Part shown: positions 35,387 to 44,574 of the stretch, in pieces
How the letters are laid out: each line of letters begins with the position of its first letter
How positions within the stretch are numbered: the stretch's first letter is position 1
Origin: a virus
Lineage: Duplodnaviria > Caudoviricetes
Direction: 5' to 3' (one strand)
IMG/VR virus record: IMGVR_UViG_3300018089_000001
Span: 121,487-185,486 of that record
Length of the DNA: 64,000 nt
The notes under the pieces: model-generated
Told to the model about the DNA's origin: nothing
The model's database searches: none
The model's input: the letters and a program-made list of their open reading frames with translations, nothing else
Position numbers and translations under genes: made by a program

Positions 35387-35457
35387 TAGCCCTGTGGAGA
35401 ATCGAACTCCATCCCGATGATTGAAAATCATCTCGACTGCCGTTATCTGACAGGGCC
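35387..35457 (-). tRNA. tRNA-Glu(TTC)
   Basis: Loop TTTTCAA, T arm GTTCGATTC. Confidence 0.8.
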
Positions 35458-35943
35458 TCTTGCTTTCCGCAGTGCCTTCGCTCTCGTCGAGAGAGGGAAT
35501 TTCCCCACATTTCGACCGCTGTAGGTCGATGTAAGGGCATGACACATCGCACAAAGCAACCTTAGGTTGCTTCGATCGTTGTTGTCTGGGTTTCCGTCAA
35601 TGCGATCCATCTGGATTGGAGCGGGCTGGCCCAACCACTCCATGATTCCACAGTTCTCGCAGCGACGTCCCATTTCACGTAGCAGATGAAGTTTACGAGC
35701 GCCGTCTGATTTCAGAGCACCCCAGCTGCGATCCATCACCGGAATCACACGGATCTTACAAAGATTGCAGTGGACCTTTGTGCCAAACTCGCGATTGTAC
35801 ACAGCACCACATTGCGTGCAAGTTCTAAACTTTCGGAGGCGCTCACCGACATCGCGCTGTGAACACTTCCTTGAGCAAAACCGTTTACGCGATGATGGCT
35901 TGACTTGAAATGAAATTCCGCACTTACAAGTGCGATCTTCCAT
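35443..35943 (-). mobile_element. HNH endonuclease with N-terminal Zn fingers (catalytic His replaced by Arg)
   Basis: CENC..QMDRIDGNPDNN..NLRLLCAMCH. Confidence 0.8.
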
Positions 35944-35991
35944 ACGTCCTTCCGTTAGACTGACGGGGCCAAGCTGCCATAGAATTATGCC

Positions 35992-36219
35992 ATGAGGGCA
36001 TGCATCTACGTTCCGTTCGTCTCCTGTCGAGGCGTGGAGTACGAGCTGGAGATCGAGCCGTCCGACGACGGACGGATACACGCGGTGGGACGCTTCGTCG
36101 AGGACGAGCGGGGGACCGTCACGGCCGAGCCGCTCGGACTGAGCTGGGACGGCCTGATCCCCATGTCGCAGGACCTGCGGGTCGCGATCGTCAGCTGGCG
36201 ATCCGATCCGGGAAACTAG
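35992..36219 (+). CDS. hypothetical protein
   Basis: TAGAAT-N6-ATG; high-GC3 ORF. Confidence 0.6.
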   Translation: MRACIYVPFVSCRGVEYELEIEPSDDGRIHAVGRFVEDERGTVTAEPLGLSWDGLIPMSQDLRVAIVSWRSDPGN

Positions 36220-36221
36220 GG

Positions 36222-36294
36222 TGCGGACGATGGGATTCGAACCCACCACCCCCTGATTGGCAACCAGGCGCTCTACCGAATGAGCTACGTCCGC
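36222..36294 (-). tRNA. tRNA-Gly(GCC)
   Basis: Loop TTGCCAA. Confidence 0.9.
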
Positions 36295-36334
36295 GTGTCA
36301 GCAGGCTACTACCCGGCCTGCCAGCGGTATCAGT

Positions 36335-37951
36335 TCACTTCACGAAGCCGGCCATCTCGGCCGCGAACCTCAGGATCCCCTCGCCCCAGCCGCCGAGGAC
36401 GTACGTCCGCCGGTAGAACTCGGGCATGATGGTGTCCTGGTAGCCGGCGACCTGCACCAGGAAGACGTTCACGTCGGGGTTGACCTCAGCGCGGTACTTC
36501 CTGACCAGCTTGGCGACGTCGATGTGGCGACCGTCCCAGGCGTAGTCGCGGTACTCACCGGGCTTGATCCCGTACAGGCCGCCGTGGCCCGCCTGCATGT
36601 CCGAGAACACGAAGACGTTGTCCCACCTGACCTTGCCCGCGATCGCGTCCCGCCAGAACATCCAGATCCCGTTCTCGGTGGACTGCCCGATGTCCCGGGC
36701 CAGCGACTCCGCGCGGGCGAGCTGGTCGAACGCCGAGGCGAGCTTGCGCACCGGAAAGACCTTGAGGTCGTCGCCGAAGACTCCGAGGCTGCCCTCGTCG
36801 GACGCCATGGCCGCGATGATGCCGGTCAGGTTCGCGATCGTGGACACCCGCATGCTTCCCATCGAGGAGGTGGTGGCCCCCTGCGCCGAGCCGCTGTTGT
36901 CACACAGCGAGATCGTCCTGCCCGGGAGACGCGGGACGTTGTCCAGCGAGGTACGCAGGCATCGCTCGATCGCATCGAGCACGGTGGCCGGGGCGATGTC
37001 CTGGACGGCCAGGTACGCCGAGTAGTATCGGAACGGCAGCTGCTTGCCCGCGGCCGCGCCCTCGACGAGCTTGTCCACGAAGACCGACGGGTCGATCCCC
37101 TTCTGGAGGACGTTCCGCACGTTCCTGAGGAGAGCCATGTGGCCCATCACGTCGATCGCCTTCCGCCAGTTCTCCGGGGTGGAGCCGCCGGTCGAGATGA
37201 TCGACTCCCAGGTCTGGTCCGTGGAGACCAGCTTTCCCTTCATCAGGGCGTCGAGCGCCGCGGTCCGCTTGGGATGGACGAGGTTCACGACGTCGAGCGT
37301 CTTGACCGTCCGGTTCTCCATGCGGTACTTGGCGAGCTGATACTCCGTCAACCGCGTCAGCTTGTCCGCCCACGCCTTCTTCAGCGAGTTCGGGATGGGC
37401 GCGTCCTTGCCGAAGCGCCAGACGTGATAGGCCAGCCCCACCGCCGGCTCGTCGGCGCGCTGGATGATGTCCGGCGCGTACTGCCGCACCAGGCCGGTCC
37501 CGCGAACCTTGGGGTGACGCGCGGCCCGCACGAGGATGACCTGCGGGGTCGTCCTGATGTGCTCGGCCTGCCGCAGCCGCACGGCCTCCTTGAGAGTGCG
37601 GACCGGATCGTGGTCGAGGGCCCGGTCGATGGCCGACTCGATCGCCTCGGCCGGCGTCTTCCCACGCCACTCCTGGGGATCGATCGCGTCGAGCGTCTTC
37701 CGCAGCTCGACGCGCTGGGCGTCGGTCAGGAAGGACGGGACCGATGTGTGGTGAGGCACCGGTCGCTTGACACGCCTGTCCTCCGGATCGGCCTCGTAGT
37801 ACTTCGGCTCACCGAAGAAGCACGAGCTCGCGGCGATCCTGAGGGCCTTGACGGGATCGTTGATGTCATATGACTCGCCGCCCATCCAGTTCAGGTGAGG
37901 CGTCGGCGCCTCGGGCGCCTGCTTGGTCTCGTGGAACCGGGACATCGTCAC
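36335..37951 (-). CDS. rsr: Ro60/TROVE-domain RNA-binding protein (TROVE + vWA)
   Basis: YQLAKY, TWES.IS, MGHMALLRNVRN, QLPFRYYSAY, DNSGS (MIDAS), SDMQ. Confidence 0.92.
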   Translation of the reverse strand: MTMSRFHETKQAPEAPTPHLNWMGGESYDINDPVKALRIAASSCFFGEPKYYEADPEDRRVKRPVPHHTSVPSFLTDAQRVELRKTLDAIDPQEWRGKTPAEAIESAIDRALDHDPVRTLKEAVRLRQAEHIRTTPQVILVRAARHPKVRGTGLVRQYAPDIIQRADEPAVGLAYHVWRFGKDAPIPNSLKKAWADKLTRLTEYQLAKYRMENRTVKTLDVVNLVHPKRTAALDALMKGKLVSTDQTWESIISTGGSTPENWRKAIDVMGHMALLRNVRNVLQKGIDPSVFVDKLVEGAAAGKQLPFRYYSAYLAVQDIAPATVLDAIERCLRTSLDNVPRLPGRTISLCDNSGSAQGATTSSMGSMRVSTIANLTGIIAAMASDEGSLGVFGDDLKVFPVRKLASAFDQLARAESLARDIGQSTENGIWMFWRDAIAGKVRWDNVFVFSDMQAGHGGLYGIKPGEYRDYAWDGRHIDVAKLVRKYRAEVNPDVNVFLVQVAGYQDTIMPEFYRRTYVLGGWGEGILRFAAEMAGFVK

Positions 37952-37980
37952 TGCCTTTCTCTCGGAGGAGTGGAGGAGTT

Positions 37981-38047
37981 GGCGGAGGAAGGGCGGGCGC
38001 GGTGTTTTTCACCCAATAGAAGTAACCGCTCCCAAGTCACTGCCGCC
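37981..38047 (-). ncRNA. Y-RNA-like 1 (Pro TGG-like loop)
   Basis: GGCGG/CCGCC stem, CAGTGA..CGGTTACTTC..GAA..TTCCT scaffold next to TROVE. Confidence 0.7.
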
Positions 38048-38050
38048 TAG

Positions 38051-38118
38051 CGCATCCGGATCGAATTGAACGACCATCTCCCGATGTTGAGTCAGGGCTC
38101 TGCTTGAGCTACGAACGC
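38051..38118 (-). tRNA. atypical tRNA-like gene, anticodon CAA, short V arm
   Basis: Cloverleaf with 5-nt D loop, loop CTCAACA. Confidence 0.5.
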
Positions 38119-38125
38119 AAGTCGC

Positions 38126-38260
38126 ACGTCGGAGAATACCGCCCACGGTGTGTTAGCGTGCTACCGTTACACCAAGGACCCATGGAGTGGGCCCCCCAGG
38201 ACTTGAACCTGGACCTCTCTCTTACAAGGAGAAGTAACCGCAGGACATCACTGCCGACGT
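38126..38260 (-). ncRNA. Y-RNA-like 2 (YrlA-type) containing a circularly permuted tRNA-Thr(TGT)
   Basis: Scaffold plus anticodon arm, T arm, loop-closed acceptor stem and D arm in permuted order. Confidence 0.8.
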
Positions 38261-38271
38261 ACGGAAAGTGT

Positions 38272-38363
38272 CGCAATGCGAAGGAAGTCGACGACGGGTT
38301 TTTCGTTTTCGGTTGAAAACCGAATGATGTTGAAGTAACCGTCACCATCACTGTCGCATCGCG
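38272..38363 (-). ncRNA. Y-RNA-like 3 (Glu TTC loop)
   Basis: Scaffold plus TTCGG-TTTTCAA-CCGAA hairpin. Confidence 0.72.
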
Positions 38364-38366
38364 TCG

Positions 38367-38435
38367 TGCTCCCGGACCGAGTCGAACGGCCGGCCTCCCA
38401 GACCAGCTGGGCGCTCTACACTGAGCTACGGGAGC
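38367..38435 (-). tRNA. atypical tRNA-like gene with 5-nt anticodon loop (CTGGT, Thr-like)
   Basis: Good acceptor/D/T arms; CCCAG-CTGGT-CTGGG. Confidence 0.55.
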
Positions 38436-38439
38436 TAAA

Positions 38440-38503
38440 GGGGAAGGAAGCTCGGAGCGGGGTTGTTCTTGGCATGAAGTAACCGCTTACCGTCACTGTC
38501 CCC
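38440..38503 (-). ncRNA. Y-RNA-like 4 (Gly GCC loop)
   Basis: Scaffold plus TTC-ATGCCAA-GAA; CATAAT 5 nt upstream. Confidence 0.72.
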
Positions 38504-38539
38504 AAGCCATTATGGCACTGTCGTTAGCAGTGCCGCTCG

Positions 38540-38612
38540 AGCGACCGGCGGGTCTCGAACCCGCCACCCCACGGTTGGGAACCGTGCGTTCTACCGGATG
38601 AACTACGGTCGC
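38540..38612 (-). tRNA. tRNA-Gly(CCC)
   Basis: Loop TTCCCAA. Confidence 0.9.
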
Positions 38613-38617
38613 GTCGG

Positions 38618-38689
38618 AGCAGGAGACGGGACTCGAACCCGCAGTCTTCTGGTTGGAAGCCAGGTGCCCTGCCGTTGGGCCACTCCTGC
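38618..38689 (-). tRNA. tRNA-Gly(TCC)
   Basis: Loop CTTCCAA. Confidence 0.9.
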
Positions 38690-38693
38690 AAAC

Positions 38694-38991
38694 GGTCACG
38701 GGCGAGAGGTGTGCTGTCACGCCAAAGACTCAGACGGAGCTGTGTCGGCCATGGTCCGACTCATCGCCTCGTCGGAGGGCCCACGCCGTTCAAGGCGAGC
38801 GTGGGATCCGATCTGCGCCCTAATCCGCCGTTCCCAGCGGTCTCCGTGGGGACAGGCGCGGTGCCTTGATACGTCCGCGCCCTTCCTTACGCCCGGGTCA
38901 GAAGCCTTATCGCCCTTCGCTGCCGGGACCCCGTCGTCACTCTTTAAAGGATGGCTGCTCTTAGGCCAACCTCCCTATCGCTCTCGTGACC
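38694..38991 (-). ncRNA. ~300-nt RNA mimicking the 23S rRNA L11-binding (H43/H44) domain with a large insertion
   Basis: GGAGGTTGGCCTAAGAGCAGCCATCCTTTAAAGAGT...GCGTGACAGCACAC; ends pair GGTCACG/CGTGACC. Confidence 0.7.
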
Positions 38992-39068
38992 TGGTAGCGC
39001 ATCCGGGTGTCGATCCCGGTTTTCCCGGCTGAGAACCGGGCGTACTAGCCAACGTGTACTAATGCGCC
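38992..39068 (-). tRNA. tRNA-Glu(CTC)
   Basis: Loop TTCTCAG; CCA; T loop starts with A. Confidence 0.8.
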
Positions 39069-39069
39069 G

Positions 39070-39145
39070 TGGCGCCCCGTACGGGAATCGAACCCGTCTT
39101 GACCCGATCGACAATCGGGCGTCCACGCCAGTGGACCTACGAGGC
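39070..39145 (-). tRNA. tRNA-Asp(GTC)
   Basis: Loop TTGTCGA; GCCA end. Confidence 0.85.
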
Positions 39146-39153
39146 ATTCAGAG

Positions 39154-39227
39154 TGGGCCGCCTCGGACTCGAACCGAGAACTGTCTCCTTAAGAGGGAGG
39201 TGCGATGCGCTATTTCACCAGCGACCC
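39154..39227 (-). tRNA. tRNA-Lys(CTT)
   Basis: Loop CTCTTAA. Confidence 0.85.
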
Positions 39228-39333
39228 GAATAGTTCCCGGTCTCTCCCGGGCGTCAAGCCTCATCTGAGCGGTTGGGCTTTCTCCTCTGCACCGCGTGTC
39301 GCCCGGTGTGCTCCGGCGCCGGCCAAGACTGCG

Positions 39334-39415
39334 TGGGAGACCGTGGAATCGAACCACGTCGTGCATGACGACCGCTGATTTACAGTCAGGTGCCTTACCG
39401 GTCGGCCAGTCTCCC
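39334..39415 (-). tRNA. tRNA-Tyr(GTA)
   Basis: Loop CTGTAAA, long V arm. Confidence 0.85.
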
Positions 39416-44073: not shown

Positions 44074-44574
44074 TCACTTTGCGGAAGAAGCAGGAGTCGA
44101 ACCCAACCCCCTAAGGGGCACCTGACGTTCAAAATCAGTAGCCGGCCTCTCGGCTTTCCTCTTCCATTTCAACTTCTTACTACGATAAGTTTCAGTCTGC
44201 GAGTGACAGTTGGGGCAAAGAAGCTCGAGATTGACTAACCGATGATCCGTGCTGACTCCATTGACATGATTCAATTCGAGTGAGAGTCTCGAACCATTCC
44301 ATTCAGAGAGTCCACACTTTTCGCACCTGTATTGTTTCAGCCCTTCCTTGACCAACCTGATTGAGAGCTTTGCAGTAGCATACTCAGGGTGCCTCCCATT
44401 GAGAATGTCATCGAGCTGCTTCTTTTTCCCCTGGCCACTAGACTTCTTGACTCGGTACAAACCGAACTTAGTAGCGAGATCTCTGAACTGTCGAAAACCG
44501 AGACCGAGCTTTGCTGCGGCCTGTCCCATATTCGCAGTGACAGCGATAGCCTCTTCGAGTTGCTCCCTTGTCAC
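44074..44574 (-). mobile_element. HNH homing endonuclease
   Basis: CEKC..LELNHVNG..NLELLCPNCHSQT; low GC. Confidence 0.88.
44082..44165 (-). tRNA. tRNA-Ser(TGA)
   Basis: Loop TTTGAAC, long V arm. Confidence 0.8.

What the first reader, a model, noticed from the sequence alone, without database searches (positions are those of the whole stretch)
37981..38503. Ro60-linked array of four Y-RNA-like scaffolds, each displaying a different tRNA anticodon loop
Seen: four minus-strand elements just upstream of TROVE share terminal stem-CAGTGA-stem-CGGTTACTTC-[insert]-AAC-stem-TTC(C)T-terminal stem. The inserts present N-T-anticodon-purine loops: ATTGGGT (Pro TGG; loop boundary ambiguous), CTTGTAA (Thr TGT), TTTTCAA (Glu TTC), ATGCCAA (Gly GCC). 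The Thr and Glu loops are identical to this phage's own tRNA loops; Gly matches 6/7 and Pro 5/7. Known: bacterial and phage Ro60 genes are flanked by Y RNAs, and YrlA mimics tRNA but uses the anticodon-stem position for Ro binding. Inference: a modular constant-scaffold + variable-anticodon system in which Ro60 presents anticodon baits. These could decoy host anticodon nucleases (PrrC, RloC, AriB-type) or engage tRNA-modifying or repair enzymes.
Basis: partly seen in the sequence, partly recalled or inferred. Interest (0 to 1): 0.95.

Follow-up and report, generated by a model that had tools for sequence, protein, structure and literature searches.

The report
Phage Ro60 Y-RNA array, tRNA-like heads
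Four small Y RNA genes sit just upstream of a phage Ro60 gene; they share one protein-binding scaffold and carry different heads, two of which copy a tRNA anticodon arm, which is a new twist on a known kind of RNA rather than a new system.

Summary
Four minus-strand elements (38440-38503, 38273-38362, 38127-38259, 37981-38047) share one scaffold: terminal stem, bulged N, AGUGA, stem 2, GGUUACUUC, a variable head, an A-rich strand, stem 2', UUC(C)U, terminal stem. The last one ends 35 nt before a TROVE/Ro60 gene.

A covariance model seeded on a related locus finds all four and nothing else in the 185-kb genome. It also finds 273 co-oriented copies in 107 other TROVE loci, and both stems covary strongly. 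These are Y RNAs of the YrlA/Yrl kind, with an R-G-Y-G-A box in place of the published GNCGAA. Rfam's YrlA model misses them.

The anticodon reading is partly right. Y3 is a YrlA-type, circularly permuted, complete tRNA mimic, and its "V arm" has the anatomy of an anticodon arm. Y2 carries a free-standing 5-bp/7-nt anticodon-like hairpin. About a quarter of family members carry such hairpins (18/78 and 33/145, against about 2-3 in shuffles). Y1 is marginal (3-bp stem). Y4's loop belongs to a recurrent UUGG motif.

Matching the phage's own tRNAs is near chance. The decoy function is untested. The scan's first readers had already noted the permuted tRNA on this same stretch.

The parts
38440..38503 (-). 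Y1: short Y RNA. Scaffold plus a UUC/GAA 3-bp stem with the 7-nt loop AUGCCAA.
   Evidence: Motif match; fold; CM R2 gives 44.8 bits, E=6.1e-8.
38366..38435 (-). Aberrant tRNA-like spacer, called Pro(tgg). Its anticodon arm is 2 nt short. It starts 4 nt after the 3' end of Y1 and ends 3 nt before the 5' end of Y2.
   Evidence: ARAGORN; Rfam tRNA 53.3 bits with a shortened anticodon loop; sequence.
38273..38362 (-). Y2: Y RNA whose head holds a free-standing anticodon-arm-like hairpin at 38308-38324 (UUCGG-UUUUCAA-CCGAA).
   Evidence: Fold z=-3.0; CM R2 gives 50.2 bits, E=2.7e-9; passes the strict anticodon-arm test with 5/5 pairs.
38127..38259 (-). Y3: YrlA-type Y RNA. Order of parts: scaffold; anticodon-arm-like hairpin 38217-38233 (UUCUC-CUUGUAA-GAGAG); linker AGGU; T arm 38196-38212; closed acceptor-like hairpin; D arm; A-rich linker.
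   Evidence: Fold z=-2.6; CM R2 E=1.6e-5; un-permuted, ARAGORN calls tRNA-Thr(tgt); A15:U48 Levitt pair; T-arm region resembles a mycobacteriophage YrlA.
38050..38118 (-). Aberrant tRNA-like spacer, called Leu(caa). It has no long variable arm, C at position 37, and a 5-nt D loop without GG. It lies 8 nt after Y3 and 2 nt before Y4.
   Evidence: ARAGORN; Rfam tRNA 37.9 bits; cloverleaf is the minimum-energy fold.
37981..38047 (-). Y4: short Y RNA. Scaffold plus a UUC/GAA 3-bp stem with the 8-nt loop UAUUGGGU (UUGG class).
   Evidence: Fold; CM R2 gives 48.2 bits, E=8.6e-9; UUGG enrichment in short members.
37948..37952 (-). An AGUGA box between the Shine-Dalgarno-like AAAGG and the Ro60 start codon (ATG 37943-37945). 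It is a candidate Ro60 operator or a remnant of a fifth Y RNA 5' half.
   Evidence: Sequence; enriched in this TROVE clade but not in a second clade.
36335..37951 (-). Ro60 (TROVE) gene, 536-538 aa.
   Evidence: Pfam TROVE 4.9e-12; matches Thermus phage phiLo Ro60 (9KOP/9L5Y) at 7.5e-19; 36-38% identity to Bacillus phage G gp540 and a Nitratidesulfovibrio phage.

Best explanation
This is a cluster of four Y RNA genes of the bacterial/phage YrlA-Yrl kind. They are most likely co-transcribed with the surrounding tRNA array and the downstream Ro60 (TROVE) gene.

Inferred processing: RNase P and RNase Z-type cuts at the flanking tRNAs and at the two interleaved non-decoding tRNA-like spacers release the individual RNAs.

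The constant module is the Ro60-binding scaffold, by homology of architecture with known Y RNAs. It consists of the terminal stem, a bulged nucleotide, the AGUGA/UUC(C)U internal loop, stem 2, and the GG-UUAC...A-rich-CC junction.

The variable heads are the effector modules. Y3 carries a complete, circularly permuted tRNA mimic: anticodon-arm-like hairpin, 4-nt variable loop, T arm, closed acceptor stem and D arm, with the chain opened between positions 26 and 27, where the Ro60 stem is attached. Y2 carries only an anticodon-arm-like hairpin. Y1 and Y4 carry minimal loops of recurrent sequence classes.

Most likely function (inferred): the RNAs gate phage Ro60 and tether it to different partners during infection. 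Candidates are host PNPase, as in RYPER complexes, and proteins that recognise tRNA elbows or anticodon arms. This would serve surveillance or turnover of structured RNA, tRNA above all.

What is shown: the family, the structure and the anticodon-loop grammar. What is inferred: Ro60 binding, processing and partners.
For: - Specificity: four exact motif copies against 0 by chance. CM R2 finds only these four in the whole genome.
- Family size: 78 hits in 28 of the 34 sources searched and 195 hits in 79 further loci of a different TROVE clade. In the replication set all hits lie on the TROVE strand. Copies come in clusters of 1-5.
- Covariation: the terminal stem is 96.9% paired and stem 2 is 91.7% paired. 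All 14 of their pairs show double changes. The covariation score is 0.685, against 0.166 in shuffles and at most 0.12 when partners are slid.
- Link to known Y RNAs: R2 also hits the intergenic regions next to the TROVE genes of Bacillus phage G, crAss001, Caulobacter phage CcrPW and Streptomyces phage BRock. Phage G and a CcrColossus-type phage are already reported to have Y RNAs (PMC12135203, citing Chen 2014).
- Same layout as a mycobacteriophage YrlA: stem, box, stem, CGGUUAYC, V hairpin, T arm, acceptor-like stem, D arm. UUAC corresponds to the published YUAY (PMC4201824).
- tRNA tertiary grammar: the Levitt pair is G15:C48 in 27 members, A15:U48 in 9, and other in 7.
- Anticodon-arm module: strict hairpins occur in 18/78 members against 1.9±1.4 in shuffles, and in 33/145 against 2.7±1.6 in the replication set. 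The loop profile is C32 U33 N N U36 A37 A38 in both sets with no condition placed on the loop. Un-permuted YrlA-type members are called tRNAs in 15 of 23 cases, mostly with the hairpin's triplet as anticodon.
- Co-transcription: no promoter- or terminator-like site on the minus strand in 36200-39400.
- The protein is a Ro60 homologue.
Against: - No expression or binding data exist. The record is a metagenomic virus of unknown host.
- The literal GNCGAAN0-1G box is absent, and Rfam YrlA (RF02553) gives no hit even at E<=10.
- The UUC/GAA helix at the base of the heads has no covariation.
- Alignments made by the model lean towards its structure.
- About three quarters of family members lack an anticodon-like hairpin, so it cannot be essential to Y RNA function.
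- The un-permuting test tried many cut and trim variants.
- The published topology, with the Ro60 stem as anticodon stem and the hairpin as a long variable arm, cannot be excluded from sequence alone. UUAC could pair with a GUAA that follows the D arm in some members.
- The genome has no RtcB or Rnl2-type ligase that would tie the locus to tRNA repair.
Confidence: 0.82

Rival explanations
1. The anticodon-like loops are baits held on Ro60. They titrate or competitively inhibit host anticodon nucleases (PrrC, RloC, AriB, VapC or colicin-like enzymes) or tRNA-modifying and repair enzymes, and so protect the tRNA pool during infection.
For: - Anticodon-loop grammar (U33, R37, A38, free positions 34-35) is selected in about a quarter of the family, in two independent sets.
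- Triplets are diverse.
- The loci sit inside large phage tRNA arrays.
- In Salmonella the rsr-yrlBA-rtcBA operon is switched on by anticodon-loop cleavage. Its authors suggested that YrlA might competitively inhibit the nuclease (PMC7790460).
Against: - No direct evidence exists.
- The stems bear no likeness to the cognate tRNAs.
- Matching the phage's own anticodons is near chance: 37 of 64 triplets are covered.
- A decoy should mimic host targets, and the host is unknown.
- Position 36 is strongly biased to U, and CUGYUAA-type loops recur. That looks like a conserved loop type rather than free display of anticodons.
- Y4 and many short members carry non-anticodon motifs.
- Most members lack the hairpin.
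Confidence: 0.12
2. The anticodon-like hairpin is an inherited remnant of the tRNA (or tRNA dimer) from which these Y RNAs arose. It is kept only as a stable, nuclease-resistant U-turn hairpin, and no partner reads it as an anticodon arm.
For: - A dimeric-tRNA origin of YrlA has been proposed (bioRxiv 10.1101/312249, citing Sim and Wolin 2018).
- ARAGORN calls a tRNA directly on the 5' part of two Y RNAs, at L006:3333-3404 and L123:6186-6255. That is what a vestigial first tRNA would give.
- The hairpin is dispensable in most members.
- The 5' strand always reuses the invariant UUC.
Against: - The loop grammar is maintained across TROVE clades only about 25% identical, while positions 34-35 drift freely. 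This points to selection on the loop, not mere descent.
- Free-standing copies exist without any T or D arm: Y2 in the window, plus members of L017, L025, L037 and crAss001.
Confidence: 0.3
3. The elements are not functional RNAs. They are decayed tRNA pseudogenes or a repeat family that happens to lie near TROVE.
For: - They lie in a tRNA array with two defective tRNA-like genes between them.
Against: - There are 273 further copies next to TROVE genes in 107 loci. All 195 in the replication set lie on the TROVE strand. Compensatory changes occur in all 14 pairs of the two stems.
- There are no copies elsewhere in the genome.
Confidence: 0.03

Closest known systems
YrlA / YrlB Y RNAs of bacteria and mycobacteriophages (Chen et al. 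2014, PMC4201824; Rfam RF02553)
   Same: - Encoded just upstream of Ro60 and on the same strand, with several copies per locus.
- The 5' and 3' ends pair. A conserved box sits in an internal loop, followed by a second stem and the YUAY motif (here UUAC).
- One member per locus carries T arm, closed acceptor-like stem and D arm, with a covarying 15:48 pair.
- The layout is colinear with the mycobacteriophage ScoobyDoobyDoo Y RNAs.
   Different: - The box is AGUGA (family-wide R-G-Y-G-A) rather than GNCGAA.
- The Rfam model does not detect these RNAs.
- The hairpin that Chen et al. call a poorly conserved V arm here has a 5-bp stem and a 7-nt loop with anticodon-loop grammar. Salmonella YrlA is stated to lack an anticodon loop (bioRxiv 10.1101/312249).
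- Here the hairpin also occurs alone, without the tRNA-like core (Y2).
Yrl1/Yrl2 of Thermus phage phiLo with phiRo60 (PMC12135203; PDB 9KOP, 9L5Y)
   Same: - A phage Ro60 with Y-like RNAs just upstream. The window's protein matches phiRo60 at E=7.5e-19.
- Stem-bulge-stem architecture.
   Different: - phiLo has two RNAs with a CGAA box.
- No tRNA-like or anticodon-like head is reported.
- Binding to Ro60 and host PNPase was shown there by experiment and is untested here.
Deinococcus radiodurans Yrn1
   Same: A Ro60-bound Y RNA with a T-arm-like hairpin and a potential anticodon arm with a 5-bp stem (PMC4201824).
   Different: - Yrn1's loop has 6 nt.
- The orientation of its arms differs, and both strands of the metazoan-type Ro box are kept.
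- It is thought to have evolved independently.
tRNA mimics with an anticodon-domain mimic (TYMV tRNA-like structure; tmRNA with SmpB)
   Same: An L-shaped tRNA mimic that includes a stand-in for the anticodon arm.
   Different: - Those have free CCA ends, are aminoacylated, and act in replication or ribosome rescue.
- Here the acceptor end is closed by a loop and the mimic hangs on a Ro60-binding stem.

Membership tests
Y RNA of the YrlA/Yrl kind | Encoded within a few kb of a Ro60 (TROVE) orthologue and on the same strand | tested here: met
   Y4 ends 35 nt before the TROVE ATG, on the same strand. The same holds for 195 of 195 hits in the replication loci.
Y RNA of the YrlA/Yrl kind | 5' and 3' ends form a stem that flanks an internal loop or bulge carrying a conserved box, followed by a second stem | tested here: met
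   Folds. Covariation in all 14 pairs of the two stems, with a score of 0.685 against 0.166 in shuffles.
Y RNA of the YrlA/Yrl kind | GNCGAAN0-1G motif near the 5' end (Chen 2014) | tested here: not met
   The box is C-AGUGA in all four elements. Across the family it varies as R-G-Y-G-A/U, including GGCGA. It is therefore a U-for-C variant at the homologous position, not the literal motif.
Y RNA of the YrlA/Yrl kind | Conserved YUAY between the Ro-binding stem and the V/T region | tested here: met
   UUAC in all four elements. In 145 replication members it reads TTAC, ATAC or CTAC in 132.
Y RNA of the YrlA/Yrl kind | At least one member per locus has a tRNA-like domain (T arm, closed acceptor-like stem, D arm, 15:48 pair) | tested here: met
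   Y3. In the discovery set, 15 of 28 loci have a member with a T arm; many loci are partial.
Y RNA of the YrlA/Yrl kind | Reaches the gathering score of Rfam RF02553 | tested here: not met
   No YrlA hit at E<=10 in 37850-38620. The model also scores a true mycobacteriophage YrlA at only 28.8 bits against a 69-bit threshold, so it is narrow.
Y RNA of the YrlA/Yrl kind | Bound and stabilised by Ro60 in vivo | not testable with these tools
   Needs immunoprecipitation or EMSA.
tRNA anticodon arm (as a mimic) | 5-bp stem, 7-nt loop, U33, purine 37, followed by a 4-5-nt variable loop and a T arm | tested here: met
   Y3 meets all features. Y2 meets the stem and loop features but has no T arm. Y1 has only a 3-bp stem. 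Y4 fails, with an 8-nt loop.
Anticodon-nuclease decoy | Is bound or cleaved by, or inhibits, an anticodon nuclease | not testable with these tools
The triplet matches to the phage's own tRNAs are near chance.

The most novel reading that the evidence does not exclude
Phage Ro60 RNPs display anticodon stem-loop mimics, either alone or as part of a complete permuted tRNA, which are read by anticodon-recognising proteins. The Y RNAs would then act as Ro60-anchored competitive inhibitors or sensors of host anticodon nucleases, or as sponges for position-37 and other tRNA-modifying enzymes. The variable 34-35 dinucleotide would set the specificity.
Probability: 0.12. Interest if true: 0.85.

Novelty: new variant of a known kind. 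Interest (0 to 1): 0.5.

Why it matters
Y RNAs next to phage Ro60 genes are known, but their effector ends are poorly understood.

First, this locus belongs to a large phage Y RNA subfamily that the Rfam model misses: hundreds of copies, and more than 560 TROVE loci in IMG/VR for one clade alone.

Second, the stem-loop filed in the literature as a weakly conserved variable arm obeys anticodon-loop grammar in about a quarter of members. This makes some YrlA-type RNAs complete, permuted tRNA mimics, whereas Salmonella YrlA is described as lacking an anticodon loop.

This narrows the search for the unknown YrlA effector to proteins that read anticodon arms as well as tRNA elbows. It supports the tRNA-dimer origin model. 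It also gives a concrete substrate for testing the published suggestion that YrlA could inhibit anticodon nucleases.

Tried and rejected
- Near and distant DNA searches of GenBank phages gave no close relative. The only hit was a 62-nt match of the Y3 T-arm region to a mycobacteriophage YrlA.
- Rfam, at the gathering threshold and at E<=10, found only tRNAs and noise.
- An exact-pattern scan of IMG/VR returned mostly chance matches: only 10 of 119 loci held a TROVE gene. I used it for leads only.
- My first rule-based closure finder was too loose, and I replaced it with a covariance model.
- MAFFT alignments of the elements were out of register in the 3' half. I therefore seeded the model on one sequence and iterated.
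- Minimum-energy hairpin counting undercounts anticodon-like loops, because RNAfold closes the 32-38 pair.
- I dropped the idea that the loops mimic the phage's own tRNAs. The stems differ, and triplet matches are near chance.
- I looked for a tie to tRNA repair. The genome has no RtcB or Rnl2, only a CCA-adding-type nucleotidyltransferase far away. The neighbouring ORFs are HNH endonucleases, glycosyltransferases and a PD-(D/E)XK nuclease.
- The AGUGA box in the Ro60 leader as a general autoregulatory site did not replicate in a second TROVE clade.
- UUAC pairing with a GUAA after the D arm is possible in some members, but AUAC variants show no compensating change.

Full report
**What is there.** The window comes from a 185-kb IMG/VR virus record. 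It carries 41 tRNA genes on the minus strand.

On that strand, between tRNA-Gly(CCC) and an ORF of 536-538 aa, lie four elements that share CAGUGA-N(6-8)-CGGUUACUUC. The pattern occurs four times in the window and 0 times in 100 shuffles. It occurs nowhere else in the genome.

The ORF is a Ro60 homologue. It matches Pfam TROVE at 4.9e-12 and the solved Ro60 of Thermus phage phiLo at 7.5e-19. It is 36-38% identical to Bacillus phage G gp540 and to a Nitratidesulfovibrio phage protein.

Each element folds the same way: terminal stem, internal loop, stem 2, apical part.

Between Y1 and Y2, and between Y3 and Y4, sit two defective tRNA-like genes. One has an anticodon arm 2 nt too short. The other is called Leu but has no long variable arm, has C37, and has a D loop without GG. 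No promoter- or terminator-like site is found on the minus strand in 36200-39400.

**It is a family.** Twenty-one IMG/VR loci encode relatives of the protein at 39-63% identity. Most carry one to four copies of AGUGA...GGUUACUUC beside the gene.

I built a covariance model from one short member of another locus and iterated it once to give R2. R2 found 78 elements in 28 of the 34 sources searched. These included all four window elements (E from 2.7e-9 to 1.6e-5) and no other site in the window or in the whole genome.

On that alignment the terminal stem is 96.9% paired and stem 2 is 91.7% paired. All 14 of their pairs show compensatory double changes. The covariation score is 0.685, against 0.166 in shuffles and at most 0.12 when partners are slid. 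The alignment was fitted to the model, which favours the structure, but the slid controls use the same alignment. The 3-bp UUC/GAA helix at the base of the heads does not covary.

For replication I fetched 79 further loci from a different TROVE clade, about 25% identical to the window's protein. They gave 195 hits at E<=0.01, all on the TROVE strand. Copies come 1-5 per locus.

**Relation to known Y RNAs.** Chen et al. 2014 (PMC4201824) define YrlA by four features:
- a 5' GNCGAAN0-1G box;
- a conserved YUAY that begins the V region;
- a "less-conserved" V stem-loop;
- then T arm, closed acceptor-like stem and D arm.

A mycobacteriophage locus shows the same order as the window's elements. This is the only GenBank phage with DNA similarity to the window, over the T arm of Y3. 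Its order is stem, CGAA box, stem, CGGUUAUC, hairpin, T arm, acceptor-like stem, D arm.

The window's UUAC corresponds to YUAY. AGUGA occupies the place of (G)GCGA. Across the family the box varies as R-G-Y-G-A/U, with GGUGA, GGCGU, AGUGA and GGCGA the commonest forms.

R2 also hits the regions flanking the TROVE genes of Bacillus phage G (five to six copies), crAss001, Caulobacter phage CcrPW and Streptomyces phage BRock.

Rfam's YrlA model does not detect the window's RNAs. It scores even a true mycobacteriophage YrlA far below its threshold. So these are Y RNAs of the known kind, in a box variant that the curated model misses.

**The anticodon claim.** In Y3 the hairpin directly after UUAC has a 5-bp stem and the loop CUUGUAA. 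It is followed by a 4-nt linker (AGGU), a T arm, a closed 7-bp acceptor-like hairpin and a D arm.

If the chain is cut in the acceptor loop and rejoined where the Ro60 stem is attached (positions 26/27), ARAGORN calls a tRNA-Thr(UGU). The same treatment gives a tRNA call in 15 of 23 T-arm-bearing members, mostly with the hairpin's triplet as anticodon. Many cut and trim variants were tried, so this is a demonstration rather than a test.

The nucleotide before the T stem covaries with D-loop position 15: G:C in 27 members, A:U in 9, other in 7.

Y2 has a perfect 5-bp/7-nt hairpin (UUUUCAA) with no other tRNA part.

I set a definition in advance: five pairs with at most one open, a 7-nt loop, Y32, U33, R37, A38, and T loops excluded. 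Under it, 18 of 78 members have such a hairpin, against 1.9±1.4 in dinucleotide shuffles (maximum 8 in 500). In the replication set, 33 of 145 do, against 2.7±1.6.

With no condition placed on the loop, 5-7-5 hairpins near UUAC show C32, U33, flat 34-35, U36, A37 and A38 in both sets. So anticodon-loop grammar is a real and replicated feature of about a quarter of this family. The literature describes this hairpin as a weakly conserved V arm, and states that Salmonella YrlA lacks an anticodon loop (PMC4201824; bioRxiv 10.1101/312249).

- Y1 has only a 3-bp stem. Its AUGCCAA loop resembles AUGCUAA and AAUGCAA in distant phages.
- Y4's loop has 8 nt. It belongs to a UUGG class found in 7 of 33 short members, against 0.9 expected. 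It is a conserved motif, not a displayed Pro anticodon.
- The window's tRNAs cover 37 of 64 triplets. Four matches to the phage's own anticodons therefore have about an 11% chance.
- The stems of the Y hairpins do not resemble the cognate tRNAs.
- In other loci the Y loops match the cognate phage tRNA loop fully in 2 of 6 cases and at 5-6 of 7 positions in the rest. That is what shared loop grammar alone would give.
- Position 36 is biased to U, and CUGYUAA loops recur. The "anticodons" are therefore not freely variable.

**Function.** Nothing here tests function.

By homology of architecture, the constant module should bind Ro60 and the heads should bind effectors. This is how Y RNAs work in Deinococcus, and as shown for phiLo Ro60, Yrl RNAs and host PNPase (PMC12135203).

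The tRNA-like spacers lie 2-8 nt from the Y RNA ends, and similar odd tRNA calls occur among Y RNAs in other loci. This suggests RNase P/Z punctuation of one long transcript.

The decoy idea has a published precursor: Hughes et al. suggested that YrlA might competitively inhibit the anticodon nuclease that triggers the rsr-yrlBA-rtcBA operon (PMC7790460). The phage genome has no RtcB or Rnl2 ligase.

I give the decoy or sponge reading about 12%. I give a purely vestigial hairpin about 30%. The rest goes to a hairpin that completes a tRNA mimic read by some tRNA-binding partner.

ARAGORN's direct tRNA calls on the 5' parts of two Y RNAs fit the proposed tRNA-dimer origin.

**Verdict.** This is a new variant of a known kind. 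First-reader notes of this scan on the same stretch had already proposed the permuted tRNA-Thr and the non-decoding spacers. I reached both before that look-up and tested the first of them here.

Noticed in passing
window 37943-37975 (-), and the Ro60 leaders of L005, L009, L010, L017, L025: An exact AGUGA box lies between the Shine-Dalgarno sequence and the Ro60 start codon in 6 of 17 distinct loci of the window's TROVE clade, with AGUGU or AGUAA variants in five more. Among 167 other SD-bearing ORF starts it occurs twice. It could be a Ro60 operator (autoregulation) or the remnant of a Y RNA 5' half. It is not enriched in a second TROVE clade (5/73 against 41/395 controls).
   Followed up: partly
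window 37930-37955 (-) compared with 38233-38256 (-): The first codons of the Ro60 gene (GGCAGUGA-CGAUGUCC-CGGUUCC) resemble the 5' half of Y3 (GGCAGUGA-UGUCCUG-CGGUUAC). The leader before them holds two copies of ACUCCUCC, which can pair with the AAGG-C-AGUG stretch.
   Followed up: no
window 38366-38435 and 38050-38118 (-): Two non-decoding tRNA-like genes are interleaved with the Y RNAs, 2-8 nt from their ends. Odd tRNA calls also sit among the Y RNAs of L005, L006, L007 and L010. They are probably RNase P/Z processing handles.
   Followed up: partly
window 38514-38534 (-): A 7-bp hairpin (GGCACUG / CAGUGCC) with the 7-nt loop CUAACGA lies between tRNA-Gly(CCC) and Y1. The loop also follows the Y-U-NNN-R-A pattern. 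Fold z-score is -2.4.
   Followed up: partly
short family members, e.g. window 38010-38025 (-), L009:3899-3968, L018:3599-3668, L037:8739-8808, L042:4075-4137 (-): A UUGG (often AUUGGC or UUGGUGA) motif recurs in the apical loop of short Y RNAs from unrelated phages: 7 of 33 against 0.9 expected. It could pair with CCAA or with a tRNA 3' CCA end. This is pure speculation.
   Followed up: partly
L006:3333-3404 and L123:6186-6255: ARAGORN calls a tRNA (Pro tgg, His gtg) directly on the 5' part of a YrlA-type Y RNA, spanning the scaffold 5' strand, the anticodon-like hairpin and the T arm. This is what a vestigial first tRNA of a tRNA dimer would give.
   Followed up: no
window 35443-36249 (-) and 44074-44574 (-): Two HNH endonuclease ORFs sit inside the tRNA array (PHROG E=4e-18 and 8.5e-32). 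One of them lies directly downstream of the Ro60 gene.
   Followed up: no
L005:2908-3246: A related phage carries a tmRNA gene (tag ANDNSYAAPLSAAA) in the same tRNA/Y RNA/Ro60 block.
   Followed up: no
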